Assembly: GCA_042408215.1 (NCBI GenBank) | Contig: JAYFMW010000005.1 | Location: 288,001-352,000 of the forward strand | DNA: 64,000 nt | Direction of reading: 5' to 3' | Origin: Microcoleus sp. | Lineage (GTDB): Bacteria; Cyanobacteriota; Cyanobacteriia; Cyanobacteriales; Microcoleaceae | Part shown: positions 11,391 through 57,546 of the stretch, piece after piece | Layout of the letters: every line of letters begins with the position of its first letter | Numbering within the stretch: the stretch's first letter is position 1 | Made by a program: the position numbers and the translations under genes | The notes under the pieces: generated by a model | What the model was told of the DNA's origin: nothing | Seen by the model: only the letters and a program-made list of their open reading frames with translations | Database searches by the model: none

Positions 11391-11852
11391 TTGACACTCC
11401 CCGGCATGAATGCGCGGGGATTCTTGGTTCACCGATACACCTTTAAATTGCCTATCCTTTCGGCATTACTTAAACCAAAAACCCGTTCAATAGAACTAAG
11501 TTTCGAGCCTAAGTTAGACAATCCCAGAGGGCTGATCTCCCCAAGCGATAGAGAGTTTCCTCTCTTGTTTCCCTGTGCCCCACGGTACGTTTAATATTCA
11601 AGATTTTAGTTTTCTGGTCTGGGTTACGTTAGTTACCCTAGCTATGTTTTTCGTGGTGTTCGCCACCCACTAACCATTATTATTTCCCGACCAGTCGTTT
11701 GAGCTTGGTGCGCACTGTGTATCGGCGGTTATTCTACCTGTAGTATTACTCTATTGTACCATACTGTTCAATTAATTTTCGGAAACCTTGAACCGGAAAT
11801 TTAGATCGTTAAAGCCGTCCTAAAAGGACGGGGCTTTAGACCTAATTTACTG
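11391..11852 (-). mobile_element. ORF-less IS200/IS605 element encoding a putative expanded omegaRNA
   Basis: TTAC target, AAAG+CCCCGTCCTTTTAGGACGG left-end hairpin, GAAT-hairpin-TCAA right end, TGGTACAAT extended -10, GTGGGGCACA/CGCTTGGGGA scaffold motifs. Confidence 0.85.
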
Positions 11853-12049
11853 GTAAGTTAACTCACTGTCAACCCACTGTCAACCCACTGTCAATGCCAT
11901 TTCAAAAAAACCATAAACTCGACCCAAAGAAACGGTTAAAACGCCATTGAGACAAGGAAATAATCGGATTCAAAGGCCTTGTCGGGCAAAAATAGAAAAT
12001 TAAAACTGTTCCTGACTGGCAAGAACGTCTCAGGGAATTTGTCGATAAA

Positions 12050-12117
12050 TTACGCTCAATGTACCGCATTTCGACTAGGCTCAATGCACCACATTTCGAC
12101 TAGGCTCAATGCACCGC
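12050..12117. repeat. Tandem small dispersed repeats (CATTTCGACTAGGCTCAATGCACC)
   Basis: About 25-nt unit in 2-3 copies; related copies near 4516, 14974, 32796, 53182 and 60409. Confidence 0.75.
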
Positions 12118-12348
12118 CTCATCATCGTGAACAACTATGAGTCATTTTAGAAAAGTATTTGCCTATTTAGTCAAGCTCCACCCTTAAGGGTTTGACAGTA
12201 GCCACTCTATTTCTAATATTATATCCTAGAATCTTGCGAGCGCTGGTTTTTTTTTCGCTAACCCACCCAAATTAATGATTCTGGGTGGGGAATGGGGCCC
12301 GCGATGTAGTTCTCAATTTCCCATAATCCCTCAGACTTTTACACTTTT

Positions 12349-13059
12349 TTACACTAGGAGGCGCTCCAGGGCGTGCAGGTCAGGAATGCACAGAACGTCA
12401 CGATCGCGCTGAATACTTCCTTTTTTTTCCAGCTTGCTGAGCACCCGCGTGACGGTTTCCCGAGCTAGCCCGCTGAGGCTGCTCAATTCTCGGTGTGGCA
12501 AGTTGGGAATTTCTGTACCTCCTGTTGACATAATTTTGCCTTGCCCCTCGGCCAAAAACAAGAGAATATCTGCTACTCGCGAGGTGCTATCCGACTCTCG
12601 CAAGCGCAGGCGACGGTTGACTTGCCGCAGCCGACGGGCCATCAGTTGAGCCAGCCGAATGCCTGCGAGGGGCTCGGTGTGAATTAGCTGTACAAAATCT
12701 TGAGATGGCATATTGCCGATCAGCGTCGGAGCTAGGGTGATGACATCTGTCGATCGCGGTGCTTCTTCGATCGCAGCCATTTCGCCAAACAGTTCTCCTT
12801 TGCCCAAAATATTGAGCGTTACTTCTTTTCCATCTAGGTTGTAGGTGCGAATTTTCACCCAACCGTCCAATATGAAATACACTGATGTTCCCCAGTCATT
12901 TTCCAGCAAAATCACTTGATTTGGCGGATGGCTGCGGGTAACGATGTGGACAGTCGCTCTCTCGATTACAGGAGCGGGCAAGCCCGCAAAAAAAGGAGTA
13001 GATACTATCAATTGATTTATATTGGAATTCGGATCTCGGGTGTTAAAGCGGTCTTCCAT
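12349..13059 (-). CDS. crp: Crp/Fnr-family regulator (cAMP receptor protein-like)
   Basis: FGEMA..PRS cNMP pocket; GLARETVTRVL HTH. Confidence 0.85.
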   Translation of the reverse strand: MEDRFNTRDPNSNINQLIVSTPFFAGLPAPVIERATVHIVTRSHPPNQVILLENDWGTSVYFILDGWVKIRTYNLDGKEVTLNILGKGELFGEMAAIEEAPRSTDVITLAPTLIGNMPSQDFVQLIHTEPLAGIRLAQLMARRLRQVNRRLRLRESDSTSRVADILLFLAEGQGKIMSTGGTEIPNLPHRELSSLSGLARETVTRVLSKLEKKGSIQRDRDVLCIPDLHALERLLV

Positions 13060-13445
13060 GAGGCCATCATTTTAATTTATGCGCTGGTGCTGCGCTGGGC
13101 AGTTAGAAATAGCTTGCAGCCGAGTCATTGAATTTGAGATTTGAGAAACAAGGAGCTCAAATCGGCAATTTTACCTCTCAAGTTTTGCGGTCAAAGGTCG
13201 AGTCAGGGAATTAATAGCCTAAAGCTGTGATTGCGAGCTATAAACCAAAGATTATACCATAAAATTTGCTCTCCACACCAGCGATCGAAGTCAGAGTGAG
13301 AAACTGCGATCGGCGTGGTCAGGGATGAGCTACAGCTACTGGAGGCGAAGTTTTCCAGAAACCGCTCCTAGCGACCCCACATCATTGTACCATTAATGTC
13401 TACCCATAAATAAAGCTCACAAGCCATGATTAAGGCTGAGTAGAG

Positions 13446-13873
13446 GTCAAAAACCCACCGCGAACCCCTTCGGGTCGAGTTGGGGCTTGAACAAAAGTCG
13501 TGGTATAGTTGAGCGGATTTCGCTCCCGCGTCCTTGACCAGATTGCTTGGGGTAGGAGAGGAGTCGGCAGAGATGGACTAAATGGCCCAAAAAATTACTA
13601 AACTTAGTCATACTTAACTTGACTGATTAACATTGTGGGCAGTATGATTACACCAATGCCTAAAAAAGGCTTAATTATCTGGTTTGTAAACCACAGTTTT
13701 GTCAAAACTGACCAGCCTGTAAAAAGGTCGAACGGGAGTCCGCGTTTCGTTAAATTGGTTGAAAATAGTGGATGACTCATGGCTAAAAGCTTCAACTAAG
13801 ATTAATTAAATTAGGGCGATGCTCCACCCGAATTAACGCCTGTGGACAAGAATGAGCCGACTCCCTTGGATGA
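13446..13873 (+). mobile_element. Putative ORF-less element with an IscB-element-like end and a structured RNA interior
   Basis: GTCAA..ACCCACC...TGGGGCTTGAA...TTGACCAG resembles the end at 10108; finishes at GATGA; GGAGTCGGC/GCCGACTCC closing stem. Confidence 0.55.
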
Positions 13874-13941
13874 AACAGGAAGCAGACCCTTCAGAAGTAA
13901 TTCTGATTGAATGGTGAGACTTAAATAAGTTTAGCCAAGTT

Positions 13942-16900
13942 TTGTATAGCAGACAGTTATGGATAGGTTCTAGACAGCAGGTTCCGCCCTTGAATTCTCA
14001 GAATAAGTACAAAATTCAAGCACTGATTGCTGAGATTGACGAGGTACTCAGCAAGCCCGTACCCCGGTTTCCTTGGACGGGTTCGATGGATACTGTCCAT
14101 CAGCGTCAGCTTTTAGAGCGTGTTCGCACCTATCTGGTTTCGCCAGACTCAAAGCTAGTGGCCGACAAAGAACTTTCAAGCAGCCCAAGATTCCGCCCGG
14201 AAGTAGTGGGAGGAACGGAATCGACAGTGGCTACTAACCAGCAAGCGGTAGACCAAATCTTGCTGGCCGTAACCGGAGAAATCAGCCACCTGCGATCGGA
14301 GCTGATGCAGCCTCTCCAGGAAGATATACAAGCTCTAATGCAGGAGCAAGAAGCTCTAGTTCAAGAAATTCAACAGTTGGAAGCAAAACGGCAGCAGCAA
14401 CAATCCTTAGCTCAGCAACAAGCAAACCAACAGCAAATCATTGCGGAATTTTTGCAGGCGTTGACGCTCAGCTTGCAAGAAACTCTCGCTCGCGGTGTAT
14501 TCCGCCCAAGTGTGGAAAATCAGTGGTTACGGGGCGCTCAGGCGACCGATCGGGATCGGGGATCGGACTCGTCCCGACTTGAGCCGAGCCAACAAACCAA
14601 GGGAGAACCGGGGGAGATGACGGGGACCGAGGAGATTGACAGGAAGTTGCAACTGTTCGAAGCTAATGTCGATCGCCTGATGACGAGGCTGGATTCGACA
14701 ATGAGTATTGTGTTCGAGACCTTGGAAGCAAATCTGCAAAGTTATCAAGAATCCTTGAGCCAGGGAATCGAAAAAATGCACGGCTTGGACCAGCAGAGCG
14801 AGGTGATGTTCACGGCTTTGGTCAACCACTTGGCTGCACAGTTGGGGCGAGAAGCTTCTTCCTATTTGCAGCAGCCTTTCGACTTGTCCACTGCAAAGAG
14901 TGAAACCTCAACCGCAGTCGAACGCACCCCAGCCAGTCCGCTGCTCCCAAATCCGGCAGAATCTGAGTCAACACTTCGACTACGCTCTGTTACCGCCGCA
15001 GAGACTCCAATTCCAAATGCGCTCGTGGAAAGTGAAAATCTCCCCAGGAGTCAATTTGGAGAACAAGAAAGACTCCCCTACGCCGGTACAGAAATGTCTC
15101 CGCAATTCGGACAGTTGAGGCGCGAGCGCGACCGGAATCAATTGCCGATCTCGCTGCCAGATTTGGAAGAAAATTTGTTCGGTGATGAGTCTTTGGACTC
15201 ACGAGCCACAACTGGGTTCCCAGGGGCTGAGTCGGAAGTTCAGTTGGCCCAAACCGGTGAAGATGTTGAGGATTTATACGCGAGTTTGTTCACGGGAGAG
15301 GAAGTCGCTGAACTAGAACTCGAAGACTTCACCATCGAAAATACCGAAAATGCAGTCTCCAGAGAATTGGTGCAATCTCAAATTCCTCCAGAATATGACA
15401 ATTCTGAACCCTTAATTGCTGCGGTCGATTTGTTGGCAAATCTGCTGGATGAAGACGAGTCCGTAGAAGAGTTTCTAGGGCGTGAAAATTCAGACTTCGT
15501 AGCAGCTCATTACGTAGAGGATATAACTTTAGATACAGAAGATTTATTTGCTCCAGAAGTTGCGGGATTACCTCAGTTGTCAGCACCATTAGCCTCAACA
15601 TCGGAGCCACAACTAGACCTCGAAGAGCCAAAAAATCAAGAAATAGCGCCCAACCAGGCTGAACTAGACAGTGCTGCTGCCCATAAAACCAGACCTTTGC
15701 CCCCACCGCCGCCGCCGCCCGCTTTCAGAACGACGCCAGAAACTACCTCGAAGCTCCCCGCTGCTGCGCCCGGAGTGGCCAGTGTTGGGGATGTTCAAGC
15801 AGGCGAGTTAGGGGCGGTGGCCGAGCGACTAGATGATGCTTACATCCAAGCTTCGCCGGACGAAGATTTACTGCCTTCTGCTCGCTCAGAGGATAGCCTC
15901 GATCGAACTCTAAATTTGGACAACAATACTCTGCAACAGTTGGAGGCAGACCTCTACAGTATGGAGGGAGCGGAAAATCAGATCGAGAGGCGATCGCCAC
16001 CCTCAGCGGCCCTAAACTCCCAACAGTTGGTCGATTACCCAGACGGGAATGCAGAAACACCGCCCGACGATCGCCATAACGGGCAGGCTGCGGAAGAACT
16101 CGCCACCCTGGATGATTTGTTTGCTCATGTGTTAGAAGTCTCATCAGACGAAGATGAAACTTTGAGTTGGGAAGAGGAACTCGATGCTGAGTTGTTTTCA
16201 TCCAGCGAAGGATCAAGCCTCAGCCTAGACGAGATTTTGGTGAGTTTGACTCAGACAGAGCTCCCTCCCATGAATTCTCCAAATCAAGAGTCAGAAACCG
16301 CAGAGGAAACAAACGCACCGCAGTCAAATTCTGGGGAAATTCAAAAAAAAAACCTAATTTCGATAGAGACTAAAGCAGAAGTTATTCAGGGGAAAAACGA
16401 GTTAGCAGTTCCTCCGCAACCAGATGCCGATGGTGTCGCAGCGGTTTTATTGATGGGGAAAACTCTGACGAATGACGAAGGCCGATCGCCCTCTTTATTC
16501 TCTACAGCTCACCCCCAGGAACTAAGGAGATCTAACTGGTATTTGGGCATAGATTTGGGTTCAACAGGGCTTTCAGCAGCATTGCTCGATCGCACAACCC
16601 GCCAGGTGTATCCGATTTATTGGGAGGCAAGACGGGCTTTTGGCGCACCGCAGGATGGAGATTCTGAGGCCTGTCGCAGTTGTCGGATTCCGTCGGTAGC
16701 GGTTCTGGAAGACTCAGCTAATTCCAGTGACTCCCGACAAGCAGCAACAACTGCTGGGCAGTTTTTACTGCAAAATTTTAAGTTGCTGTTAAAGGTTGGG
16801 ATTCCCGATCGCGATGAGGTGACTGGGATCTACGAGCCGGTGTTTCAATTGTCCCAGGATCGGGCTGTGTCGATCGCCTTGCCGCTGCAAGGTTTGCGGG

Positions 16901-18483: not shown

Positions 18484-18489
18484 AGGCTC

Positions 18490-18602
18490 TTCTTCCTTCT
18501 TCCTTCTTCCTTCTTCCTTCTTCCTTCTTCCTTCTTCCTTCTTCCTTCTTCCTTCCCAGCGTTACATCCGTTACATCCGTTACATCCGTTACAGAATCCG
18601 TT
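18490..18602. repeat. (CTTCCTT)n heptamers then (GTTACATCC)n nonamers
   Basis: Direct tandem repeats. Confidence 0.9.
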
Positions 18603-18622
18603 GCCGAACTTCCTTCTAATTT

Positions 18623-28935: not shown

Positions 28936-29856
28936 ATGGAAAGTCCTATGGCCGAAAGTTTTCAACCCAGCGCTCACACCAACAATCTTAACTGTCTGTT
29001 AACCAATACAGACCACATTAAAATAGCTTTGGCGATCGGCAATTCGCGGCTGCACTGGGGACTATTTGCTGGGGAAAATCTTCTGGAAACATGGGATACA
29101 CAGCATTTGAGTGCTGGTGCTGTGGAGCGGGTATCCGAGTCGGAAAAGGCAGAATATTTGGTGCAGACAGTAATTAGGTCGATCGAGGACATATCTGCTA
29201 AAAATCTCCTTTGTCTTCCTACTACTCCCGATTTTGCCAGCGATCGCAAACTTCCTTTGGTTCCATTACCTCTAATTTTAGCTTCTGTTGTGCCCGAGCA
29301 AACAGCACTTTGGCAGAGTTATCCTGATGTCGTAATTATTACTTTAGACCAGTTACCGCTCCAGGGACTCTATCCTACCCTGGGAATCGATCGAGCTTTG
29401 GCTTTACTCGGTGCTGGAACTGAATTAGGTTGGCCAGTTTTAGTTATAGATGCTGGTACTGCCTTAACATTTACTGGTGCTGATGTCAATAGGCGTTTAG
29501 TAGGAGGCGCTATTTTACCGGGTTTGGGTTTGCAGTTGTCGTCCCTAGGAGAAAAAACTGCTGCTTTACCTTTGTTAAGCTTACCAGAAAATATGCCACA
29601 GCGGTGGGCTACCGATACGGCGATCGCCATTGAAAGCGGAGTTGTGCGGGGGGTTGTAGCAGCCGTAAATGATTTTATTGAAGATTGGCTGCGTTTGTTT
29701 CCTGAGAGCAAAATTGGATTGACTGGGGGCGATCGAACTTTGTTATTAAAATATCTCGCCTCAGCCTTTCCCGATACAGCCGCAGCGGTAATTGAAAGCC
29801 CAGAAGCCATTTTTTGGGGTTTCAGAAATGTTTTCAAAGAGGGTTTAAAACAGTAG
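28936..29856 (+). CDS. coaX: Type III pantothenate kinase
   Basis: IGNSRLHW, LGIDR, VIDAGTA, GGAILPG, LTGGD. Confidence 0.92.
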   Translation: MESPMAESFQPSAHTNNLNCLLTNTDHIKIALAIGNSRLHWGLFAGENLLETWDTQHLSAGAVERVSESEKAEYLVQTVIRSIEDISAKNLLCLPTTPDFASDRKLPLVPLPLILASVVPEQTALWQSYPDVVIITLDQLPLQGLYPTLGIDRALALLGAGTELGWPVLVIDAGTALTFTGADVNRRLVGGAILPGLGLQLSSLGEKTAALPLLSLPENMPQRWATDTAIAIESGVVRGVVAAVNDFIEDWLRLFPESKIGLTGGDRTLLLKYLASAFPDTAAAVIESPEAIFWGFRNVFKEGLKQ

Positions 29857-30255
29857 CCTAAAAATCTAGAATTATCTAGATTTTTTCAGTTATTGACGAC
29901 TTGCACAACAATCGCGATCGACTTGAGAAACGCGCTACTTTGTGCGGGTTGTTAAAGCTTACTTGGTGTGAAAACCACAGAAACACTCTTGCTCAAACTA
30001 ATCATCAAAAAACCAAATATTTTAAGTCCTCTGCTAAATCAAGGCAGTCTCTAACTGGGAAGATCGGGCCAACCTGAGCAATCGGGAAACTTAGAGCATC
30101 CGATAAGGGCTAAACATAAACCGCTAAGTTTGACCTACAGATTTCTGTAGATTTTTAGAAGCGGTATTGAGTTTTGAGTTAGGAAAAAGGAAGATTAATT
30201 CTCAATGCTCAATGCCCAATGCCCGATGCCCAATGCCCGATGCCCAATGCCCAAT

Positions 30256-31065: not shown

Positions 31066-31540
31066 CCGGTTAAATATTTTTATATACAAAAACCATAATT
31101 ATATCTTCTGGGATGTCAATTTAAACAAGGAAAAAAGTTAAAATTCATTCAAAACTCATAATTTATCTCAATTCCGGTTGCACTCTTGGAGATGATTGTT
31201 GACAGTGACAGTTGACGGTTGACAGTGAGTCAAAAAACTGAAAATTGCGCTTATGCTTTGGTGACTACTTGACCAATAATTTCAAAGGTGGTACAAGCCC
31301 CCGGATTTATCCGTGGAATCAATCCAAAATCCCAAATCTAAAATCCTCAAGCCCCCGCATTTATACGTGGGGTAAATCTAAAATCTAAAATCTAAAATCT
31401 AAAATCGATTGACTCGACTTTACCAGGACGATGTTAGCGGATTTGATCTGATTGCGGATAATTTGTAAATCACCTTGGTGTGGCAATTCCCGACTTTCAT
31501 AAAATCTGGTGACCACCTTGTTTCAATCTAATCAATCTAA

Positions 31541-32042: not shown

Positions 32043-33335
32043 TCATTTATAGGCATGGGAGGCTTCAAGTCCCTCCCCCTTCACTTTTACTTTGAGCGGA
32101 TTAACCCGCCTCGGCTGAACTACGCAGCTCTCTATCCCATCGCTGAAGGCATTTGGGATTGCTTTTCTGAGGATATTGTACGAAGCGTTGATATCAGAAT
32201 TAATTAACTGACCAGTCGATGTTTTGTACAAACCTCGCTTAATACGCTTACCAGTAAACATTGGCTCTTTTTCTGTTTTCCCGTAGACAGGGATTGGGTC
32301 TAGACCCACGAAGTTGGCCCGCGATGTGTAGGATTCTTCCTGTACAATTACTGTGATTCCTACCAGCCGAGCTTTGTATTCTAACATCTCAATTAATCGA
32401 GAGTGAGGAATACTGACAAAATTTTGATTGGTTTGCTTACCTAGATTGATATCGGTTTTCCACTGTGGATTTTTGCCGATTACCAGCGTTCCAATTTGGT
32501 TCACTACCAAATGGTCAACAATCACACGACTAGCATGATGCAAGTAATTATCAACTTTCTGATTACGACAGCGAGTTAATCGCTGAATTCTGGGTGAGGT
32601 TTGACGATTCCCTTTCAATTGGGATTGTAATCGGGATTTGCGTTTGTTGTAGAACTGGTTAATCGATTTTAATGGTCGCCCGTTAATCAACAAAGGAATA
32701 AATCCCGGTTGATTTGAAGTTAACGCCACTAAGTTATCCAGTCCCAAATCAATACTAGCTACAGAGTTGGCATTGCCAAGGGTGGACTCCGGTTCACTTC
32801 GACTACGCTCAGTACAAGCATCATAAATCACCTCAATTACATAGGAATCACATTTCGGAACCAGTCTAACTTGACAAATCTGGTTGGGATTGACTTGGGT
32901 TTTAATTGAAAGTTCAGTGCCGGAAAGTTTGATAATTCCTTTCTTTAACTGTTTGCTACTAATTGCTTGAATCGTGTAGACGAGAAGGTTTCGCCCTTTG
33001 ACTTTATTTTTGTACTTTGGCAGCTTTGGGCGACCCGTGAATCTTGAAGAGTCAGCTTTGTAAGCTTTAACGGCTTCAAAAAACGATTTCCAATTCTTGT
33101 CTAGCACCATCAAGATTTGCTGACTTACTTTAGCAGGCAAAGCCTTATATGCTTCGTGAGACTTCATCAATCGGTTCATTTCGTTGTAATTGACATAGCC
33201 CCACCCATAAATAAAACTCTGACGAATGACGTAATTGGTGGCATTGTAGAGGTTTTTGGACTTGAAAGCTAATTCGTCAATCTGGACGAAACGATGTTCC
33301 GTTGATTTAATGATGTGCCTCTCTGTTAGCTGCAT
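32043..33335 (-). CDS. tnpB: TnpB, zinc-finger-less type with displaced RuvC glutamate; contains an 8-codon repeat insertion
   Basis: SKNLYN, SIDLG, IGKN, QEESYTS, INSDINAS; TGAC plus CAAG-hairpin left end near 33490-33528; right end not located. Confidence 0.9.
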   Translation of the reverse strand: MQLTERHIIKSTEHRFVQIDELAFKSKNLYNATNYVIRQSFIYGWGYVNYNEMNRLMKSHEAYKALPAKVSQQILMVLDKNWKSFFEAVKAYKADSSRFTGRPKLPKYKNKVKGRNLLVYTIQAISSKQLKKGIIKLSGTELSIKTQVNPNQICQVRLVPKCDSYVIEVIYDACTERSRSEPESTLGNANSVASIDLGLDNLVALTSNQPGFIPLLINGRPLKSINQFYNKRKSRLQSQLKGNRQTSPRIQRLTRCRNQKVDNYLHHASRVIVDHLVVNQIGTLVIGKNPQWKTDINLGKQTNQNFVSIPHSRLIEMLEYKARLVGITVIVQEESYTSRANFVGLDPIPVYGKTEKEPMFTGKRIKRGLYKTSTGQLINSDINASYNILRKAIPNAFSDGIESCVVQPRRVNPLKVKVKGEGLEASHAYK

Positions 33336-35396: not shown

Positions 35397-36769
35397 TTGA
35401 CACTCCTCGGCTATCAGGCACGAGGATTCTTGGTTCAGTCAGTCGGCTTGCCCGTTGATGTCATCACCAACGAGTAGAGGTCGTTCTGTCCCCAAGCGTT
35501 AATTCCGGTGTGCCCCACCGTATTTAGATTAATTCCTGCACGGGCTTTCAATCCTTTTGCCAGAATATTCAAAGCTGCATTATGGTCACGGTCTAATACC
35601 GCCCCACATCCGCAAATATGAGTTCTGACCGACAACGATTTTTTAACAGTATTGCCACAGGCTGAACAATCCTGGGAAGTGTACTGAGGAGCAACAGCAA
35701 CTACTGTTTTACCGTACACTTTTCCAAAATATTCTAACCATTGAGCAAACTGTGACCAAGCTGCATCGCTAATTGATTTTGCAAGCTTATGGTTTTTCAC
35801 CATATTCCGCACCTGAAGATCTTCGTAGGCTACGAAATCGCTAGATTTCACTACGCACAACGCCGTCTTTATGGCGAAGTCTTTGCGTTGCCTACTGACT
35901 TTTAGGTGTTTCTTTCCTAACTTGTTAATTGCCTTCTTACGATTACTAGAACCTTTCTTTTTTCGAGAAACTCGTTTCTGTATTCGCTTTAAAGCTTTTT
36001 CACTTTTACGGAGATGTCGAGGATTTGGAACTGTTGCCCCGGTACTATCGGTGTAGAAATGGTTTAAACCTACATCTATTCCAATAGCTTTGCCAGTAGT
36101 AATAGATGCCTCTGTCCGTTCTACATTTATACAAAACTGAGCGTAATAGCCGTCGGCACGACGAACTACCCTGATTCGCTTAATCTCGTCAGGTGAATAA
36201 AAGTGCAAGTCTCGACTACCGAGTAACTTGAATTTTCCAGCAGCGAAGCCGTCTTTAAACGTCAAACATCTTTTGTCGTTAGAAAGCGACCAACCGGACT
36301 GTTTGTACTCTACGGAACGAGTATGTTTCTTGAACTGTGGGTATCCTTTTTTCCCTGGTTTTTTGGCTTGGCAATTAGCAAAAAAACGTTGGATAGCAAA
36401 AATAGCACGCTCCGCCGAAGCTTGACGTGCTGTTGAGTTAAGTTTACCTGCCCATTCAAACTCTTTCGCCATGATGGCGCATTGTTTGTATAGATCGACT
36501 AGCTTAACTCCTTGATTGTCGATCCAGTGCCTAAGAGTTTTATTTCGGACAAATTGCGCTGTGCGGATCATTTCGTCGATCATCCGGTATTGCTGCGATT
36601 TGCCTTTTAATTTAAACTCTAGTACAATCATGCTATTATTCTCTCGTTTTTCCAGAGCATTGTATTCACAAAGTGCATATATTTAAGAATTGTTTACACT
36701 TTGTGGAAATTAAAGCCGTCCTAGAAGGACGGGGCTTTAGCCCTCCGCTACGCTCCGCCCAAATTTTTG
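35397..36769 (-). mobile_element. IS1341-type (tnpB-only) IS605-family element
   Basis: TTAC target at 36773-36770, AAAG hairpin left end, GAAT-hairpin-TCAA right end. Confidence 0.92.
35435..36631 (-). CDS. tnpB: RNA-guided endonuclease TnpB, apparently intact
   Basis: [29 protein letters not shown]. Confidence 0.95.
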
Positions 36770-36957
36770 GTAAAGACTTTAATCCTGACTACGGTTTGTA
36801 GTCAAGACTACATTCCTGGCTATTTTGTGATGTAATAAAGGACTAAAGTCCTGACTACCAACTTTAGAGATTTTGGCGATCGGCTCCTTTCACTAATAAC
36901 TCACAACAGTCCTTACCGTCTACCCTTGCCTAATACTTCCAATTCCCAACCACAAAT

Positions 36958-44917: not shown

Positions 44918-46465
44918 AAGAAATACCCTGAAAACCCTGTGACTTTAGTCCAGGGATGAAAGGGCGTGGCAGGATAAATCCTGCCTGTTCGTAAGTTTCA
45001 AGATAACATAATGTTTAACCGTCCCCGGACAAATCCTTCTAGCAATTGAGACCAAGGTAAAGATTTGTTGAGGATTAATTAACTTGTTAATTCACGATAT
45101 ATACTAAACCTAGTATCATAACAGCCAGTAAATTAAATGTACGCAGTACAAAAAGATGTTTGGCATTTAAAAGGACTCGACAAAACCATTGTCGAACAAC
45201 TACTAAGATGGTCAAATAATCTGTTCAATGTCGGCACCTATGAAAGTCGGCAACAATACTTTAAGAACCCAAGCGTAGTTAAATATCCAGATTTGTATAA
45301 AATAGCCAAGACCAACGAAAATTACGGGTTGCTATACTCTCAAGTTGCCCAACAATCTCTTAAATCTGTCGCAGAATCTTTTACTTCTTTCCGAGCCTTA
45401 GAGAAGTTGGCAAATCAAGGAGAAATCCATCAAAAACCGAGAATACCAAGGTACAGAACCAAAGGGGGAATGTACCCCGTTTCATATCCCGGTCAAGCAT
45501 TAAAGGTAATTGGAAATAAAGTCAGATTACCCCTGGGGAAAAAAGGAAAAGAATACTTTGGGAAAGATGCGATTTGGGTGCCGCTACCTGAACGTATCAA
45601 GAATTGCCAGATCGAAGAACTCAGGTTAATCCCTAGAAATGGTGAGGTCTGGGTCGAATATGTCCACGAATCCCTGACTGAACAAGCCCCTAGTTGCAGC
45701 TTGGAAGTGACAGGGGTTCTGGGCATCGATCGCGGCATCAATAACTGGTTAACTTGTGTCTCTAGCAATGGTAAACCTTTCATCATTGATGGACTTAGAC
45801 TCAAGTCTTGGAACCAATGGTTTAATAAAGAAAAAGCGAGAGTTCAATCAGAACACGCAATACATAAACTGCCTAAAGGTTTCTCGTCAAAAAGATTGCA
45901 GCAGTTGTCGGAAACTCGCACTAGAAGGATGAGAGATGCTGTCAACAAAGCAGTTAGAACCATCGTAGATTATTGCGAAAATAACCAAATAAACGTCTTA
46001 GTCTTTGGCTGGAACAAGGCACAGAAGCAAGAGGTTAATATGGGGGTCGTAACTAATCAGAATTTTGTCCAAATACCCACAGCTAAAGTCAAAGATAGAC
46101 TCCAGCAAGAATGCGACTTAAGAGGGTGGCGATTTGTTGAACAAGACGAATCTTACACATCAAAAGCAAGTTTTTTAGACCGAGACATTTTGCCAGTAAA
46201 AGTCGGTGAAAAACCTGACAATTGGCAACCATCGGGTAAAAGAATCAAAAGAGGATTGTACTGTTCTAGCGCTGGGTTGTTAATCAATGCAGATGTTAAC
46301 GGTGCAGCCAATATCATTAGAAAGTCAAAAGTAGCCATAGACTCAATTCTTGAGCGAGTGGGTAGGGGGTTTCTGACTAACCCTTTAAGAATTAAACTTT
46401 GGGCGGATTCATCCCCCAAAGTTTGTCCTTAAGAATCCCCGTGTCTTTAGACCGGGGAGTGTCAA
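44918..46465 (+). mobile_element. tnpB-only IS605-family element inserted after TTAT with no target duplication
   Basis: Excision restores GTT TTA T|CT ACT AAT TAT (VLSTNY); right end GAAT-hairpin-TCAA. Confidence 0.95.
45137..46432 (+). CDS. tnpB: TnpB, zinc-finger-less type with displaced RuvC glutamate
   Basis: GIDRG, FGWN, QDESYTSKASFLD, INADVNGA. Confidence 0.92.
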   Translation: MYAVQKDVWHLKGLDKTIVEQLLRWSNNLFNVGTYESRQQYFKNPSVVKYPDLYKIAKTNENYGLLYSQVAQQSLKSVAESFTSFRALEKLANQGEIHQKPRIPRYRTKGGMYPVSYPGQALKVIGNKVRLPLGKKGKEYFGKDAIWVPLPERIKNCQIEELRLIPRNGEVWVEYVHESLTEQAPSCSLEVTGVLGIDRGINNWLTCVSSNGKPFIIDGLRLKSWNQWFNKEKARVQSEHAIHKLPKGFSSKRLQQLSETRTRRMRDAVNKAVRTIVDYCENNQINVLVFGWNKAQKQEVNMGVVTNQNFVQIPTAKVKDRLQQECDLRGWRFVEQDESYTSKASFLDRDILPVKVGEKPDNWQPSGKRIKRGLYCSSAGLLINADVNGAANIIRKSKVAIDSILERVGRGFLTNPLRIKLWADSSPKVCP

Positions 46466-50703: not shown

Positions 50704-50990
50704 TCATTAGTCATTAGTTATTAGTCATTAGTCATTAGTCATTAGTCATTAGTCATTAGTCATTAGTCATTAGTCATTAGTCATTAGTTATTGGTTAGTT
50801 GTTAGTTGTTAGTTGACGGTTGACTGTTGACTGTTGACTGTTGACTGTCTTAATGCCCCATGCCCCATGCCCCATGCCCCATGCCCCATGCCCCATGCCC
50901 CATGCCCCATGCCCCATGCCCCATGCCCCATCTTTGTTATTTGTTATTTGTTGGTTGTTCCTTCTAATAACCAATAACTAATAACCAATT
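50690..50990. repeat. Composite STRR tract: (TCATTAG)n, (TTGACTG)n, (ATGCCCC)n
   Basis: Direct heptamer runs. Confidence 0.95.
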
Positions 50991-50998
50991 CCCTTTAC

Positions 50999-52374
50999 CA
51001 AAAATTTGGGCGGAGCGTAGCGGAGGGCTAAAGCCCCGTCCTTCTAGGACGGCTTTAATTTCTACAAAGTGTAAATAATTATTAAACCTACGCACTTTTT
51101 GAACACAGTGCTTTGTGAAAATGATAGAATAATTGGCATGATAACATTAGAGTTTAAATTAAAAGGCAAATCGCAGCAATACCGGATTATCGACGAAATG
51201 ATCCGCACAGCGCAATTTGTCCGAAATAAAACTCTTAGACATTGGATCGACAATCAAGGAGTTAAGTTAGTCGATCTATACAAACAATGCGCCATCATGG
51301 CGAAAGAGTTTGAATGGGCGGGTAAGCTTAACTCAACGGCACGTCAAGCTTCGGCGGAACGTACCATTTTTGCTATCCAACGTTTTTTCTCAAATTGCCA
51401 AGCCCAAAAACCAGGAAAAAAAGGATACCCGCAGTTTAAGAAACACACCCGTTCCGTAGAGTACAAACAGTCCGGTTGGTCGCTTTCTAACGACAAAAGA
51501 TGCTTGACGTTTAAAGACGGCTTCGCTGCTGGAAAGTTCAAGTTAATCGGTAGTCGAGATTTGCACTTTTATGCGCCTGGTGAAATCAAACGAATCAGAG
51601 TAATCCGTCGTGCCGATGGCTACTACGCTCAGTTTTGTATCGACGTGGAACGGACAGAGGAAACAATTCCTACTGGCAAAGCCGTAGGGCTGGATGTAGG
51701 TTTAAACCATTTCTACACCGACAGTGCCGGGGCAACGGTTCCAAATCCTCGACATCTCCGTAAAACTGAAAAAGCTTTAAAACGAACACAGAAACGAGTT
51801 TCCAGAAAAAAGAAAGGTTCTAGTAATCGCAAAAAAGCTATCAACAGGTTGGGGAGAAAACACCTAAAAGTTAGTAGGGAACGCAAAGACTTCGCCATCA
51901 AGACGGCGTTGTGTGTAGTAAAATCTAACGATTTTGTAGCCTAGGTCGACCTTCAGGTAAAAAATATGGTGAAAAACCATAAGCTTGCAAAATCAATTAG
52001 CGATGCAGCTTGGTCGCAGACTTGATCATTATTTGCAATACTTTGGAAAAGTGTACGGTAAAACAGTAGTTGCTGTCAATCCTCAGTATACTTCCCAAGA
52101 TTGTTCAAGTTGTGGGAATCGTGTTAAGAAAACGCTATCAACTAGAACCCATATTTGCGGATGTGGGGCGGTATTAGACCGTGACCACAATGCAGCTCTG
52201 AATATTCTGGCAAAAGGATTGAAAGCCCGTGCAGGAATTAATCTAAATACGGTGGGGCACACCGGAATTAACGCTTGGGGACAGAACGACCTCTACTCGT
52301 TGGTGGTAGCATCAACGGGCAAGCCGACTGACTGAACCAAGAATCAAGAGTGCCTGATAGCCGAGGAGTGTCAA
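50999..52374 (+). mobile_element. Second copy of the 35397-36769 IS605-family element
   Basis: TTAC target, same end hairpins, high similarity to the first copy. Confidence 0.92.
51138..52335 (+). pseudogene. tnpB: TnpB pseudogene (TAG at 51942, extra base near 52020)
   Basis: YEDL has become *VDL; frameshift after AAWSQ relative to the intact copy. Confidence 0.9.
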
Positions 52375-52499
52375 AGAGGCGGATTTGTCAAGCCCCAAAA
52401 CTTTTAAACTTAACGGACGTTCCCAAAAAGCCAACTCCAGCCCCGTGCTTTCACACCTGGGTATGTCAGCAATTCGCCGATGGGAATGCGACTGAAGAT

Positions 52500-52694
52500 T
52501 CAACGGCTAGCTACCAGTTGAATCCTGCCTGCATCCATTTCATCCATCAATAACTCTAAAGCCTCATAATCAACATCAGAGATGTGACCGCTTCGGGTGA
52601 GTTCGTAATTGATTTCATTCTCAATGTCAGGCGTCAGCCGCTTGATGTAGAGAGCTTTTTCTACAAGTTTACGAATAGCATGAGTTGCTTGCAT
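52500..52694 (-). CDS. Small hypothetical protein
   Basis: 64 aa IRKLVEKAL..LTP..E...EALELLM....GRI; GGAG upstream. Confidence 0.75.
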   Translation of the reverse strand: MQATHAIRKLVEKALYIKRLTPDIENEINYELTRSGHISDVDYEALELLMDEMDAGRIQLVASR

Positions 52695-52749
52695 AGTAGA
52701 TCATAGAACTCCGTATATTTCAATTTTCCTATGAATTCTCAATCCGGCG

Positions 52750-52788
52750 CGTGATCTGAATCAGAAGTAACAAGTGATTTCAATTACA
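52750..52788. promoter_or_regulatory. Two CRP-like boxes
   Basis: CGTGA-N6-TCAGA (52750-52765) and AGTGA-N6-TTACA (52773-52788) against consensus TGTGA-N6-TCACA. Confidence 0.5.
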
Positions 52789-53385
52789 TTCTTGAAGTTT
52801 ACCGAAAGCATCCAGGGTAAAAAGCCCCCAGATTTATTCCTTCGCAGACTCAGGAACGGGTCGCTTTCTTTAATCTAAAATCTCAAATCTTAAATCGAAG
52901 TTACCTAACAGCTAGGGCAACTCTTGGCATTTTTGACAACGGCCAAGAGTAAATATCCGGCGATGAGTAAGAAACAGTAAGTAGAAGGAAGAAGGAAGAA
53001 GGAAGCAGGAAGAAGCAAGCAGGAAGAGTGCTTATATAGCAAGCTTTATTGCCATCTGTATCTGACGTTTAATGAGGTGGATTTACTGATTGAGTATTGG
53101 TTGAAAATGTACTAGGATCGGGATGATTCTAGAACTTAGTCAACTTGACAGAGTTTTTGAGAGATTTGATAATGCAGTGCGCTGAGCGTAGTCGAAGTGT
53201 CGAGATCTTTGAAGCTGAAAACCAGTGCCTAAACAGCCACGAGTAGAGGCGAGGCGAATTGGACAAGCGGGCAACAAAACCGATCGAATTCGGTGAAACG
53301 CCTGAAAATACAAGAACTACTCATGGCGTATTGGCAGATTTTAAGGTAAGCTCTTAGACAGTCGCAATTATTAGCGAGTCGAGCC

Positions 53386-56316
53386 GTGGCAGTAGCAATC
53401 GAAGAATTACTTACATCCGAAATCAAGCAGCCAGCTCGTTATCTGGGAAATGAGTTGGGGGCTGCACATAAGCCTTGGGATGGGGCAAGAGTACGCTGGG
53501 TGCTGACTTACCCAGAAGTGTATGAAGTTGGTGCTTCTAATCTGGGGCACATCATCCTTTACAATATTTTGAATGCTTTGCCGAGACAGTTGTGCGATCG
53601 AGCTTATTTGCCGGCACCTGACTTAGCAGCAAAACTTCGATCGACTCAAACTCCCTTGTTTGCGGTAGAGTCGAGGCGATCGCTCACAGAATTTGATATT
53701 CTGGGCTTTAGCCTCAGCTACGAACTGGGAGCAACAAATATTCTGGAAATGCTGGATTTGGCCGGCATTCCCCTAACTTGGCAAGCAAGAGCGAAAAATT
53801 CCGAACTGCCGCTGATTTTTGCTGGCGGACAAACAGCAACTTCCAATCCCGAACCCTACGCTGACTTTTTTGACTTCATTGCTTTGGGAGATGGAGAAGA
53901 ATTGCTGCCGGAAATTAGCTTGGTTTTGGCAGAAGGCAAAACTAATGGTTTGAGTCGCGAAGCTTTGTTACTGGATTTGGCGCAAATTCCCGGCGTTTAT
54001 GTCCCGCAGTTCTACGATATGGCCGCAGATGGTTCTGTCCATCCCAATCGCCCCCAAGTTCCAGAACGAATTTTGCGCCGGGTGGCGACTCCCATTCCAG
54101 CTTATTCGATCGGCTTGGTTCCCTACGTTGAGACAGTACACGATCGACTGACAGTAGAAATCCGCCGGGGCTGCACTCGTGGATGCCGCTTCTGTCAGCC
54201 GGGAATGCTGACTCGCCCCGCGCGAGATGTCGAACCTCAACAAGTGGTAGAGGCGATCGTTCAAGGCATGAAAACTACCGGACAAAGCGAGTTTTCCCTG
54301 CTTTCCCTGAGTTGTTCCGACTATCTGGCACTCCCAGCAGTCGGGATGGAAATCAAAAACCGCCTTCGAGATCAAAATATTTCTCTGTCTCTTCCCAGCC
54401 AGCGGGTAGATAGGTTTGATGACAACATTGCCGACATTCTCGGTGGCACGCGCCAGAGTGGCTTGACTTTTGCCCCGGAAGCTGGTACGCAGCGGATGCG
54501 GGACATTGTTAACAAAGGTTTGACGAATGAGGAATTGCTGCGGGGTGTCAAAACTGCTGTCGATCGCGGCTGGGATAAAATCAAACTGTATTTTATGATC
54601 GGTTTGCCTGGGGAAACCGATGCTGATGTTGTGGGAATTGCCGAAACAGTCCGCTGGCTGCAAAGGGAATGCAGGCTAGATGGCCGGCGCAAACTGATTT
54701 TTAATTTGACAATTTCTAATTTTACGGCTAAGCCTCACACTCCGTTTCAGTGGCACTCTGTTTCTACGACGGAGTTTTCGCGCTTGCAAAAGCTATTGAG
54801 GACTGAATTGCGATCGCTCAACAATCTTAAGGTGAATTTCACCGATGTGCGGATTTCGGCAATGGAGGATTTTGTCGGGCGGGGCGACAGGCGTTTAAGT
54901 TCAGTAATCCGCCGTGCTTGGGAACTCGGAGCCGGTATGGATGCGTGGTGGGAAAGCTTGGATCAGGCTCACAAGGCCTGGACTCAGGCGATCGCAGAAT
55001 CCGATCTTACCTGGAAATATCGCCAAGTCGAAAACGGTGAGTGGAATTTGTTTGAAAAGAAAGAGGGGCACGACACGGATTCGGACAGGGATACAGGGAT
55101 GAATTTAACTGTGTCTCCCAAGTCTCCCAATCTCCCACTCCCCCCCTCTCCCACTCTCCCCCTCCCCCCTTCTCCCCAGGGCGGTTTCATTCTCACCAAA
55201 AACGAGGTTTTTGTAGGGGTAGTGCCCCCGTGCCTACCCCCGCCACCAACGATCGAATGGGGGTTTCAGGCCAAAAGGGCCGGCACGGGGGCACGGCCCC
55301 TACCAAGAATGAAACAGCCCTGCCCTTCTCCCTCTCTCCCATTCCTAGATCGACCTTTGCCGTGGGATCATATAGATACAGGAATCGACAAAAACTGGTT
55401 GAAAAATGACTTGCAAAAGGCTTTAGAAGCCGCAACAGTTCCTGACTGTTCCTTTGAAGGCTGTTCTCGCTGTGGCGTGTGCGGTACTGACTTCGGACAC
55501 AATGTAGTTGTAGCACCTCTGCCAATTCCTGAATTTGCCGGAGAGTTTGTGCCTCATAGCGATCGCAAACAGCGATTTCGGGTTTGGTTTGGCAAACTCG
55601 GTGACATGGCTTTGGTCGGTCATTTGGATTTGCTAAGATTGTTCGATCGAGTAGTCCGCAGAGCCGATTTGCCGATTTCCTTTACCGGTGGCTTTCACCC
55701 ACTCCCCCGAATTTCTCTGGCAAATGCCCTGCCTTTGGGTGTCACCAGCACGGGGGAAATTGTGGACTTTGAGCTGACTGAGTTTATGGATGCTACCCTG
55801 TTTCGGGAAAAATTGGTGGCTCAGCTCCCGGAAAATATGCCTATTTACAGGGTAGAGTCGATCGATGTCAAGGCTCCTTCTGCTAATCAGTTGTTAGAAG
55901 CTGCGGAGTACGTGATTACTGTGGCTGTAGCGGGTGCGTTGGCAGAAAATGAGATATTTGACATGGAGAATGCTGCTCCTGTCTCCGTCGCTCCTGATGC
56001 CCACTGGGAAGCTTGGGTAAAGGCGATCGTCGAGACAGAGGCTTTTTGGTGGGAGCACACTACTAAGTCGGGTAAGACGCAGCAAGTTAATTTGCGCGAT
56101 CGACTGCAAAAATTAGAACTTGTAGAGCCCTCTTCAGACACCCAGGCTGAAGGTAAAGCCGAAGATAGAGCCGTCTTGCGCTATACGGGTAGCTGTCGCA
56201 ATGACGGTAATCTGCTGCGAGTAGAACATATTGTGTTGATGCTTGAACAAGTCAGTCAGCAGGAAGTTCAGCTCCTACAAGTTCAGCGCCGTCAGCTTAT
56301 CCTCGGTTATGGTTAG
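53386..56316 (+). CDS. Radical SAM protein (TIGR03960-like) fused to a radical-SAM-linked C-terminal domain
   Basis: QPARYLGNE, RGCTRGCRFC, CSRCGVC, GHLDLLR..FTGGFHP; located upstream of rne. Confidence 0.9.
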   Translation: MAVAIEELLTSEIKQPARYLGNELGAAHKPWDGARVRWVLTYPEVYEVGASNLGHIILYNILNALPRQLCDRAYLPAPDLAAKLRSTQTPLFAVESRRSLTEFDILGFSLSYELGATNILEMLDLAGIPLTWQARAKNSELPLIFAGGQTATSNPEPYADFFDFIALGDGEELLPEISLVLAEGKTNGLSREALLLDLAQIPGVYVPQFYDMAADGSVHPNRPQVPERILRRVATPIPAYSIGLVPYVETVHDRLTVEIRRGCTRGCRFCQPGMLTRPARDVEPQQVVEAIVQGMKTTGQSEFSLLSLSCSDYLALPAVGMEIKNRLRDQNISLSLPSQRVDRFDDNIADILGGTRQSGLTFAPEAGTQRMRDIVNKGLTNEELLRGVKTAVDRGWDKIKLYFMIGLPGETDADVVGIAETVRWLQRECRLDGRRKLIFNLTISNFTAKPHTPFQWHSVSTTEFSRLQKLLRTELRSLNNLKVNFTDVRISAMEDFVGRGDRRLSSVIRRAWELGAGMDAWWESLDQAHKAWTQAIAESDLTWKYRQVENGEWNLFEKKEGHDTDSDRDTGMNLTVSPKSPNLPLPPSPTLPLPPSPQGGFILTKNEVFVGVVPPCLPPPPTIEWGFQAKRAGTGARPLPRMKQPCPSPSLPFLDRPLPWDHIDTGIDKNWLKNDLQKALEAATVPDCSFEGCSRCGVCGTDFGHNVVVAPLPIPEFAGEFVPHSDRKQRFRVWFGKLGDMALVGHLDLLRLFDRVVRRADLPISFTGGFHPLPRISLANALPLGVTSTGEIVDFELTEFMDATLFREKLVAQLPENMPIYRVESIDVKAPSANQLLEAAEYVITVAVAGALAENEIFDMENAAPVSVAPDAHWEAWVKAIVETEAFWWEHTTKSGKTQQVNLRDRLQKLELVEPSSDTQAEGKAEDRAVLRYTGSCRNDGNLLRVEHIVLMLEQVSQQEVQLLQVQRRQLILGYG
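55177..55322. mobile_element. 146-bp MITE with 10-bp target duplication, in frame inside the radical SAM gene
   Basis: CCCTTCTCCC|CAGGGCGGTTTCATTCT...AGAATGAAACAGCCCTG|CCCTTCTCCC. Confidence 0.92.
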
Positions 56317-56378
56317 AATTAGGAAAGCTCAAGGTGGAATATTCCGCCTTTGGCTTTCGATCGGGATGTGTCGTTTCA

Positions 56379-56388
56379 TGCTATAATG
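56379..56388 (+). promoter_or_regulatory. Extended -10 promoter, probably for the long rne leader
   Basis: TGCTATAAT followed by GC-rich hairpins. Confidence 0.5.
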
Positions 56389-56660
56389 GCTTGTCAAGGA
56401 AGCCGCTGCGGATCGAGGGCAATATGTCCCTCGTCGCCAGAGTCAACCAGCAACGCGGGCTGGGTGCAAATTGCTTCTGTTCAAGACTTCAAGCCTTTTT
56501 GTACATTGTTGGCTAAATAAGTGCGCCAAACCCGCACCAGGGGGGTCAGAACTAAATTTAGTGGTTAATCCGATCGATCGACAGCAAGTCGATCGTTGGC
56601 TTACCAAAAATCTCATGGTTCAAGCCGCTCTGCGGGTGTTAAACAATAGATGTTTTTCAC

Positions 56661-57032
56661 CTAAAAAATGGGCGGAGCGAAGCGCAGGGGCCCAAGCCCC
56701 GTCCTTCTAGGACGGCTTTGTTAGAATTTAGAAAGGCAAGAAAGGCAAGTAAGAACAACCATCTACGTGTTGAAACAATTTCATAAGGTGAGACTCCTGG
56801 GTTGGATCGCTACTCGGCAATGCCGAGCCTGTCCAAACAAGCAATAGTGAATTGTTGAGCGTACCTAACTGGCTGATTGATGGACTCAGAAAGCAATCTA
56901 AAAACAAAAGTAAGCGCAATTGCAATACTTCTCGTACCAGTAGTTGTTTTGAGCGTGTAGAGGCGATTTGACAGCGCCTTTAAGACTCAAGTCTTAAGAA
57001 TCTCCGTGGCGTTGATTCCCGGAGAGTGTCAA
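56661..57032 (+). mobile_element. ORF-less IS200/IS605 element with putative structured RNA (copy A)
   Basis: TCAC flank, CCCCGTCCTTCTAGGACGG left end, TGTTAGAAT -10, GAAT-hairpin-TCAA right end. Confidence 0.85.
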
Positions 57033-57136
57033 AGGGTTCTACGGTTGGTATAGAGGAAGTCGCAGTCGAATGGGAAGAGTCAGGTGAGTTGAGTTCGATC
57101 GCACTCATAGTTCAACAAAAGTCTAGGCGCTTTCAC

Positions 57137-57546
57137 CGAAAGACGAGCGGGAAGCCCCGCCTTTCAAGGCTGGGGAGGAACGCGGTTGCGACTTATTTAG
57201 TCACCTAAAAACTATGGCACGGCTTAAGGCAAAGCGGTATACTAATTACAGCGATTAAGAATAACCATCTACGTGTTGAAGCATTTTAGTCTCGGTGAGA
57301 TTCCGGCACAGTAAGCAACTACTGCTTTTGAGCAGGAAGCCTATTTAACTGACAAGAAATATCAAAATGTGGAACGTACCTATCTCAGGCTAAGTGATGG
57401 ACTCCGAAAGCATAAAAAAGCTAAAAGTATACGCAAGGTTTGGATTTGTCTAAGCTAAGTGGGTAGAGGTGCCTTGATAACGCCTTTGAAAGTCCCTTTG
57501 TGGTCTTAATCAAGAATCCCCCCGATTCATCGGTGGGGAGTGTCAA
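57137..57546 (+). mobile_element. ORF-less IS200/IS605 element with putative structured RNA (copy B, diverged)
   Basis: TCAC target, GAAG-CCCC..GGGG left end, TGGCAC-N17-TATACT, GAAT-hairpin-TCAA right end. Confidence 0.85.

What the first reader, a model, noticed from the sequence alone, without database searches (positions are those of the whole stretch)
11391..57546. Candidate system: a guild of RNA-only IS200/IS605 elements matched to co-resident nucleases
Seen: four ORF-less elements share one layout: transposon end, -10 box, structured RNA, and a long-range stem tying the RNA 5' end to the far terminus. The three TnpB-type ones each have AGAAYAACC near the predicted RNA start, although their interiors fall into two unrelated types. 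Each resembles the end of a different nuclease element in this window (TnpB 35435 clade, TnpB 45137 clade, IscB). Known: non-autonomous IS200/IS605 derivatives and trans-acting omegaRNAs exist. Inference: repeated acquisition of large extra RNA domains suggests an added function (RNA stabilisation, nuclease capture or modulation, catalysis, or an addiction-like role).
Basis: inference. Interest (0 to 1): 0.8.

Follow-up and report, generated by a model that had tools for sequence, protein, structure and literature searches.

The report
Guide-RNA mini-transposons with folded RNA heads
Small gene-less jumping elements in cyanobacteria carry a guide RNA for a nuclease made elsewhere in the genome, and each has in front of it an extra, tightly folded RNA domain that is not in Rfam and is kept while the element swaps its ends, so it probably has a job nobody has tested.

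Summary
Three of the four elements are real: A (11852-11391, -), C (56661-57032, +) and D (57137-57546, +). Each has an IS605 left end, a -10-like box, a 135-170-nt 5' RNA domain, an A/U-rich linker, a TnpB omegaRNA and a right end. The C/D domain has 22 copies in this genome, the A domain at least 14, and both span several cyanobacterial families. Empty alleles give exact ends for C and D with no duplication.

The domains fold locally with covariation. The C/D domain shows a kink-turn pattern and a T-loop-like hairpin with a covarying tertiary pair. It rides on several end/TAM sets and is kept when 3' ends are swapped.

Not supported: the long-range closing stems (no better than shuffles), AGAAYAACC as a shared motif, a peptide toxin, and an IscB-type fourth element in this window.

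Best reading: PATE-type stand-alone omegaRNAs (known) with undescribed heads, probably protecting the free RNA until TnpB binds and trims it. That role is inferred. The scan noted similar extra 5' domains before in other genomes. New variant of a known kind.

The parts
11391..11852 (-). Element A: ORF-less IS605-type mini-element, 462 bp, TAM TTAC at 11856-11853, right end TCAA
   Evidence: near-identical copies with different flanks
11753..11758 (-). A: -10-like hexamer (TACAAT); start of RNA predicted near 11746
   Evidence: similar hexamer at this place in most copies; not called by the sigma-70 scan; start not measured
11610..11743 (-). A-type 5' RNA domain (5' T-loop-like hairpin, P1, GCGAA-loop stem, closing stem)
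   Evidence: 94.5% paired, 8 of 17 pairs with double changes, 0/500 shuffles
11589..11609 (-). A: A/U-rich linker (20-22 nt, 77% AT, poorly conserved)
11391..11588 (-). A: TnpB omegaRNA of the 35435 superclade, with long added stems, and right end
56661..57032 (+). Element C: ORF-less mini-element, 372 bp, TAM TCAC at 56657-56660
   Evidence: empty allele in a contig of run X10
56722..56727 (+). C: -10-like hexamer (TAGAAT)
   Evidence: similar place in homologues
56747..56905 (+). C/D-type 5' RNA domain in C (P1, P2, kink-turn pattern, P3, T-loop-like hairpin, variable hairpin, P6) and A-rich linker
56906..57032 (+). C: omegaRNA of the 45137 superclade and right end
57137..57546 (+). Element D: ORF-less mini-element, 410 bp, TAM TCAC at 57133-57136
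   Evidence: empty allele in a contig of run X10
57238..57243 (+). D: -10 hexamer (TATACT)
57253..57422 (+). C/D-type 5' RNA domain in D and A-rich linker
57423..57546 (+). D: omegaRNA and right end; last 84 nt nearly identical to the tnpB element at G000:C14:67609-68859
13569..13952 (+). Element E (not identifiable in the finding): ORF-less IS607-type element with a third, unrelated conserved 5' domain (about 13656-13796), linker and omegaRNA-like 3' part
   Evidence: IS607 assignment of the ends is recalled
29840..30166 (+). Element F: ORF-less multicopy element with IS607-like ends and its own interior
   Evidence: IS607 assignment recalled, structure not tested
35435..36631 (-). tnpB of the superclade whose omegaRNA A carries and whose left end A and C resemble
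45137..46432 (+). tnpB of the superclade whose omegaRNA C and D carry (not their closest relative)

Best explanation
A, C and D are PATE-type non-autonomous IS200/IS605 elements. TnpA made elsewhere moves them (inferred). Each transcribes, from its own promoter, a precursor of 5' domain + A/U-rich linker + omegaRNA + flank-derived guide. A TnpB made elsewhere binds the omegaRNA and cuts the empty donor site after excision, so repair restores the element (known mechanism, inferred here). The 5' domain stands where the tnpB mRNA stands in a full element. It is a compact, self-contained fold that most likely protects the free RNA's 5' end and keeps the omegaRNA intact until a TnpB finds it in trans, after which TnpB's RuvC trims it off at the linker (inferred). 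The lineage persists by keeping its head and swapping in the ends of whichever tnpB family is active. SHOWN: anatomy, exact ends of C and D, copy number, local covariation, spread, association with the cognate clade, signs of end swapping. INFERRED: transcription, trans activity, trimming, protective role.
For: 22 C/D and 14 A domain copies, none heading a tnpB/iscB ORF. Empty alleles without duplication. C/D fold: 92.9% paired, 17 of 24 pairs with double changes, 0/500 shuffles; the tertiary pair 60-193 (CG 24, UA 19) was not in the model. Kink-turn G/A set in 40 of 48. In the A family the domain is as conserved as the omegaRNA (median 0.80 vs 0.79); spacer 0.49, linker 0.59. Of 48 full-length domain hits in named genomes, 43 have a right end 114-146 nt downstream. 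Cognate TnpB clade in 11 of 14 genomes with the domain, and in 10 of 137 without (kin not independent). D and a sister share a first hairpin, but their last 84-85 nt score 0.98 and 0.95 against two different tnpB elements. TnpB trims 5' extra RNA with RuvC (PMC10278001; 10.1101/2023.11.20.567912). PATEs with omegaRNAs used in trans are proposed in 10.1101/2023.03.14.532601.
Against: No test here bears on what the head does. Minimal mini-elements with no head also spread in this genome (a 10-copy cluster), so a head is not needed by every clade. Conserved unpaired bases and tertiary motifs look more elaborate than a simple protective hairpin would need. Transcription, strand and ends were not shown (only contigs). 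C's omegaRNA has no close tnpB partner in this assembly (best score 0.55). Three of 14 genomes with the domain had no cognate TnpB at E<=1e-80. The spacer control includes some mis-cut long spacers (42-332 nt).
Confidence: 0.45

Rival explanations
1. The head is a cargo RNA with a function of its own (binds a metabolite or host protein, or acts as a decoy). The mini-element is its vehicle and TnpB or RNase E releases it.
For: Riboswitch-like build: kink-turn pattern, T-loop-like hairpin with a tertiary pair, conserved unpaired bases. Cleavable-looking linker. Several unrelated heads.
Against: Never seen outside an element or in front of a host gene. Each head type stays with one TnpB superclade, which points to a role tied to the omegaRNA.
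Confidence: 0.17
2. The head is a brake or switch: it pairs with or shields the omegaRNA and limits TnpB cutting until it is removed.
For: In both families the head's 5' strand is about 77% complementary to an omegaRNA stem, well above slid controls. A tnpB mRNA region inhibits AmaTnpB (PMC10278001).
Against: That pairing shows no compensation (447/500 and 322/500 shuffles). Both strands have covarying local partners.
Confidence: 0.15
3. The head is a new self-cleaving ribozyme that frees the omegaRNA without TnpB.
For: Compact multi-way fold with conserved unpaired bases directly 5' of the guide RNA.
Against: No Rfam family matches, even at E<=5. Hammerhead core not present by eye (recalled consensus). 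Several unrelated new ribozymes would be needed. TnpB can already trim 5' ends.
Confidence: 0.1
4. The interior works as single-stranded DNA that helps TnpA excise or insert the short element.
For: IS200/IS605 move as ssDNA. RNA and ssDNA folds are hard to tell apart by comparison (PMC5737381 passage).
Against: It lies just after a -10-like box. It has G-U pairs, tandem G-A and T-loop-like features typical of RNA. Head-less elements also move.
Confidence: 0.06
5. The interiors are neutral captured DNA.
For: Copies are related by descent, which inflates conservation and shuffle tests.
Against: Compensatory changes at median 53% identity across families. Domain far better kept than adjoining spacer and linker.
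Confidence: 0.03

Closest known systems
PATE-like protein-less IS200/IS605 elements carrying omegaRNAs (Geobacillus stearothermophilus; 10.1101/2023.03.14.532601, passages read)
   Same: Left and right ends, no ORF, omegaRNA expected to be used by TnpB in trans, same genome full of tnpB/iscB elements.
   Different: The passages read describe no extra conserved 5' domain. Here there are several unrelated heads with covarying folds, and signs of end swapping.
Stand-alone omegaRNAs of OMEGA systems (as summarised in PMC10691335, passages read)
   Same: Mobile guide-RNA genes without effector or transposase; role called unknown there.
   Different: Here they are TnpB-type with an added head; function in trans is not shown for these.
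IStrons (10.1101/2023.11.20.567912, passages read)
   Same: An IS605/IS607 element with a large structured RNA 5' of the omegaRNA; ORF-less versions exist.
   Different: The IStron RNA is a group I intron that splices the element out. Here there is no intron match and an internal promoter-like box follows the left end.
FMN/cobalamin riboswitch T-loop modules and canonical kink-turns (10.1101/2022.12.26.521914; PMC12306022; passages read)
   Same: Seven-nucleotide loop with G2 and A5; three-base bulge followed by tandem G-A.
   Different: Only motifs are shared; no Rfam riboswitch match, no downstream gene, and about half the loops start with A instead of Y.
CORE-SINE/LINE parasitism (recalled analogy, not tested)
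   Same: A conserved RNA core kept while the 3' tail is taken from an active autonomous partner.
   Different: DNA transposon with a guide RNA, not a retroelement.

Membership tests
PATE / stand-alone omegaRNA element (IS200/IS605) | Subterminal hairpin left and right ends like those of tnpB elements | tested here: met
   Left ends 87-93% identical to tnpB elements; right ends in TCAA
PATE / stand-alone omegaRNA element (IS200/IS605) | Insertion 3' of a 4-nt motif without target duplication | tested here: met
   Empty alleles for C and D; TCAT 9, TCAC 7, TTAC 3, TGAC 2, none 1 among 22 C/D copies
PATE / stand-alone omegaRNA element (IS200/IS605) | No protein gene | tested here: met
   No ORF >=80 aa inside (apart from a tnpB frame whose first ATG falls in A's right-end hairpin); small ORF frames 40/32/23
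PATE / stand-alone omegaRNA element (IS200/IS605) | omegaRNA scaffold at the right end | tested here: met
   Similarity to tnpB 3' ends: D 87% over 125 nt, C about 70%, A core motifs; covarying stems in A
PATE / stand-alone omegaRNA element (IS200/IS605) | Moved by TnpA and used by TnpB in trans | not testable with these tools
   Six tnpA-like ORFs by motif and full-length cognate tnpBs are present; activity untested
IStron | Group I intron core within the element | tested here: not met
   No Rfam intron match
Known self-cleaving ribozymes and riboswitches | Match to an Rfam family | tested here: not met
   Only weak chance hits at E<=5
Group II intron remnant | Similarity to group II domain I models or to introns in the genome | tested here: inconclusive
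   No Rfam hit on the elements; R1 finds only the 22 elements at E<=5; RF02001 finds nothing in the genome, so no local comparison was possible
Kink-turn | C-stem, 3-nt bulge, tandem G-A/A-G, NC-stem | tested here: met
   All four bases in 40 of 48; 3b-3n A-U 19, A-G 19; the 3D kink itself was not tested
FMN/Cbl-type T-loop | 7-nt loop (YGNRA)NY | tested here: inconclusive
   G2 48 of 48, A5 47 of 48, position 1 is Y in 23 and A in 25; position 7 pairs with a distant strand
HEARO/IscB omegaRNA (fourth element) | HEARO match without iscB inside 11391-57546 | tested here: not met
Type I toxin-antitoxin | Conserved small toxin ORF | tested here: not met
   Peptide lengths 3-50 aa, random frame

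The most novel reading that the evidence does not exclude
Cyanobacteria harbour long-lived lineages of RNA-only transposon parasites, each defined by its own tertiary-folded RNA head that actively gains access to TnpB (by out-competing the nuclease's own mRNA, gating its cutting, or cleaving itself free) and that survives by swapping in the ends of new tnpB families. The heads would be new functional RNA classes and ready-made parts for stabilising or switching TnpB guide RNAs.
Probability: 0.25. Interest if true: 0.82.

Novelty: new variant of a known kind. Interest (0 to 1): 0.6.

Why it matters
The role of stand-alone omegaRNAs is called unknown in PMC10691335. A guide RNA cut off from its nuclease's mRNA must survive and be loaded in trans. 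These heads are candidate natural solutions, and a deletion assay can test them directly. They are at least two, probably more, structured RNA families absent from Rfam 15. They may also be useful for engineering TnpB guides. Exact ends, TAMs and a near-identical partner nuclease (D with G000:C14 tnpB) make a clean test pair.

Tried and rejected
Long-range closing stems: no covariation. AGAAYAACC as a shared signal: not above chance and structurally different in the two families. A stem closing the C/D head at its 5' end: weak, 21-45 of 48 paired. Conserved small peptide: rejected. Self-targeting: no TAM plus >=9-nt seed, or <=3 mismatches in 16 nt, for the guides of A, C, D in the assembly. 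IscB-type element: none found; 13447-13570 has only a HEARO-like start, is single-copy and folds no better than shuffles. Single-sequence folds of C and D are not better than shuffles (z -0.27, -0.45); A's is (z -3.45). A first kink-turn regex gave 24 of 103 and was faulty; it was replaced by the column count. Expression: 14 RNA runs of 7 studies hold 68-95% of the C/D stretch and summed contig depth is higher over C, but these are contigs of a multicopy family and may include DNA, so this is not counted as evidence of transcription. The joins that skip C and D carry other strain differences, so they are read as empty alleles, not splicing. No copies in plasmids. Viral contigs: 2 pattern hits not confirmed by R1, and 0. 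E domain: invariant pairs only, so no covariation either way. Sequence look-ups in earlier findings returned nothing.
Full report
SETTING. The window is G000:C5:288001-352000 of a 7.36-Mb cyanobacterial assembly. tblastn gave 279 tnpB/iscB-like loci and a motif scan six tnpA-like ORFs. The window holds tnpBs at 32043, 35435, 45137, two split ones (10129/10358 and 51099/51985) and an iscB at 8591. Rfam finds only the HEARO RNA in front of that iscB.

THE OBSERVATION. Each has a 4-nt TAM, a left-end hairpin, a -10-like hexamer, a 135-170-nt domain, an A/U-rich linker, a TnpB omegaRNA and a right end in TCAA. Contigs of run X10 skip exactly C and exactly D with no duplication. They carry other strain differences, so I read them as empty alleles. 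In C's empty allele the motif reads TGAC rather than TCAC. I found no fourth, IscB-type element: a HEARO HMM trained on this genome gave 77 hits, 25 before iscB and 52 orphans, and in the window only the iscB-linked one. Two further ORF-less multicopy elements with IS607-like ends (label recalled) lie in the window, E (13569-13952) and F (about 29840-30166), with 9 and 7 interior copies.

WHAT FAILED. AGAAYAACC occurs three times against 1.23 expected; 16 of 100 shuffles reach three. It is present in 40 of 103 distinct C/D elements. In the A family it is one form of a 5' hairpin that elsewhere reads GGUUGGAAAUCCC or GGUUGAGAUUCCC. The long-range stems come from single-sequence folding. On alignments of 23 and 26 homologues they are 76.8% and 76.6% paired, no better than shuffled partners, though above slid controls.

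THE HEADS. C/D type: 22 copies in the genome. On the hand-built alignment, 94.6% of cells pair and 12 of 21 pairs have double changes, 0/500 shuffles. On 49 sequences aligned to model R1, 92.9% pair and 17 of 24 pairs have double changes. That alignment leans to the model and relatedness inflates the shuffle test. However, pairs 45-195 and 59/60-194/193 were not in the model and came out of a mutual-information scan. The fold is P1, P2, a three-base bulge with tandem G-A (all four bases in 40 of 48; definition from PMC12306022), P3, a hairpin with a 7-nt T-loop-like loop, a variable hairpin and a short P6. The last loop base pairs with the strand entering P3 (CG 24, UA 19). The loop fits the (YGNRA)NY consensus of 10.1101/2022.12.26.521914 at G2 and A5, but position 1 is A in 25 of 48. 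A type: 14 strong copies, about 20 with divergent subtypes. Its local fold is 94.5% paired with 8 of 17 pairs showing double changes. Among the 14 copies the domain is as conserved as the omegaRNA (0.80 and 0.79), the linker 0.59 and the spacer 0.49 (some spacers were mis-cut). The conserved ATG in the C/D head opens no conserved peptide. E has a third head, found in 10 of 151 genomes; its pairs are nearly invariant in 11 sequences, so they are untested.

SPREAD AND CONTEXT. R1 hits 14 of 151 phylum genomes in three families, and one more family by BLAST. R2 hits 16 of 151 order genomes in 10 genera. A pattern scan of named genomes returned 117 stretches, 80 listed. Of these 80 plus 2 viral loci, 52 match R1: 51 are titled cyanobacteria and one an uncultured bacterium; none of the 28 other genome loci matched. 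Of the 48 full-length hits, 43 have a right end 114-146 nt downstream. Two have worn ends, two are cut by contig ends and one is interrupted (the regex gave 45, two of them spurious). The 20 hits printed had the same layout. A TAnnnT hexamer sits 5' of the domain in 44 of 48, but this is a weak pattern. No head was seen before a tnpB ORF or a host gene.

MATCH TO NUCLEASES. Each head stays with one omegaRNA superclade but rides on many end sets: TAMs TCAT, TCAC, TTAC and TGAC among the 22 C/D copies. D matches the tnpB at G000:C14 in left end (87%), omegaRNA (87%) and TAM. That protein is 416 aa with the three RuvC acidic residues visible by eye. D and the copy at C20:244k share a first hairpin unlike their partners', while their last 84-85 nt score 0.98 and 0.95 against two different tnpB elements. 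Across 103 elements, head and omegaRNA identity correlate only modestly (rho 0.38), and 10 pairs have omegaRNA >=90% but head <=65%. C joins a 35435-clade left end to a 45137-superclade omegaRNA with no close partner here. The cognate clade was found in 11 of 14 genomes with the head and 10 of 137 without; kin are not independent. Guides have no second target in the assembly, as expected for donor-joint guides. The genome also holds head-less mini-elements (10 copies), a 28-copy type with a short 5' piece, and other head types.

MECHANISM. Known: TnpA excises, TnpB cuts the empty joint, repair restores the element; PATEs often carry omegaRNAs that need TnpB in trans (10.1101/2023.03.14.532601). 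TnpB makes its omegaRNA by RuvC trimming of 5' RNA, and part of the mRNA can inhibit it (PMC10278001). Inferred: the head replaces the mRNA, shields the free precursor and is trimmed at the linker (0.45). Rivals are cargo RNA (0.17), brake (0.15), ribozyme (0.10), ssDNA role (0.06) and neutral (0.03); the remainder is unassigned. That the elements are PATE-type stand-alone omegaRNAs I put near 0.9.

LITERATURE. Nine full-text searches listed no paper describing these heads; I saw listings and abstract starts. I read passages of 10.1101/2023.03.14.532601, PMC10691335, PMC13565253, 10.1101/2023.11.20.567912, 10.1101/2022.12.26.521914 and PMC12306022, one fifth of PMC10278001 plus passages, and a term search of PMC5737381's main text (no IS605, kink or T-loop). 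I read no supplements. Motif lists in RNA-discovery supplements, closed bioRxiv files or subscription papers could already hold these domains, and the omega letter cannot be searched directly. Earlier AI notes of this scan report extra 5' domains on stand-alone omegaRNAs in a phage, in Lokiarchaeia and in another genome. I did not check them and they are not counted as support.

VERDICT. The elements are real and of a known kind. The heads are conserved, apparently undescribed and testable. New variant of a known kind; interest 0.6.

Noticed in passing
window 13569-13952 (+) and about 29840-30166 (+): Two ORF-less multicopy elements with IS607-like ends, each with its own conserved interior (9 and 7 copies); no close tnpB partner found for either in this assembly.
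   Followed up: partly
G000, e.g. C12:84171(-), C12:36408(+), C14:9939(+), C20:566907(+), C30:313526(+): More ORF-less TnpB-type families: 28 near-identical copies cognate to tnpB 45137, a 12-copy type, a 10-copy minimal type without head, and rarer types with other heads, one with a T-loop-like hairpin.
   Followed up: partly
window 11362-11391 (+): A sits just upstream of a split tnpB (10358/10129); a near-consensus promoter (TTGACC-18-TATAAT) at the junction points antisense into A.
   Followed up: no
window 56388-56505 (+): Single-copy TATAAT, hairpins and U-tail after the radical SAM gene; looks like a small RNA, no Rfam gathering hit, fold z -1.4.
   Followed up: partly
window 12178-11866 (-): Decayed element starting with an E-type left end and holding short tandem insertions; single copy.
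   Followed up: partly
window 13447-13570 (+): Single-copy stretch with a HEARO-like first 50 nt, abutting element E.
   Followed up: partly
G000 whole genome: 52 orphan HEARO (IscB omegaRNA) copies, several ending in ATGA.
   Followed up: no
G000:C17:92-93k, C20:546-547k, C30:559-560k, C17:754k: Different mini-element types often sit side by side, as C and D do in the window.
   Followed up: no
window 50993-52375 (+): Frameshifted copy, about 90% identical, of the tnpB element at 35397-36775.
   Followed up: no
L025 (G000:C30:487k) and window 31274-31410: A repeat also present in the window is inserted into the left-end hairpin of a C-type element.
   Followed up: no
G000:C9:29.9-30.2k (-): An A-family element whose 5' part is replaced by an inverted left end of the 45137-type element.
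   Followed up: no
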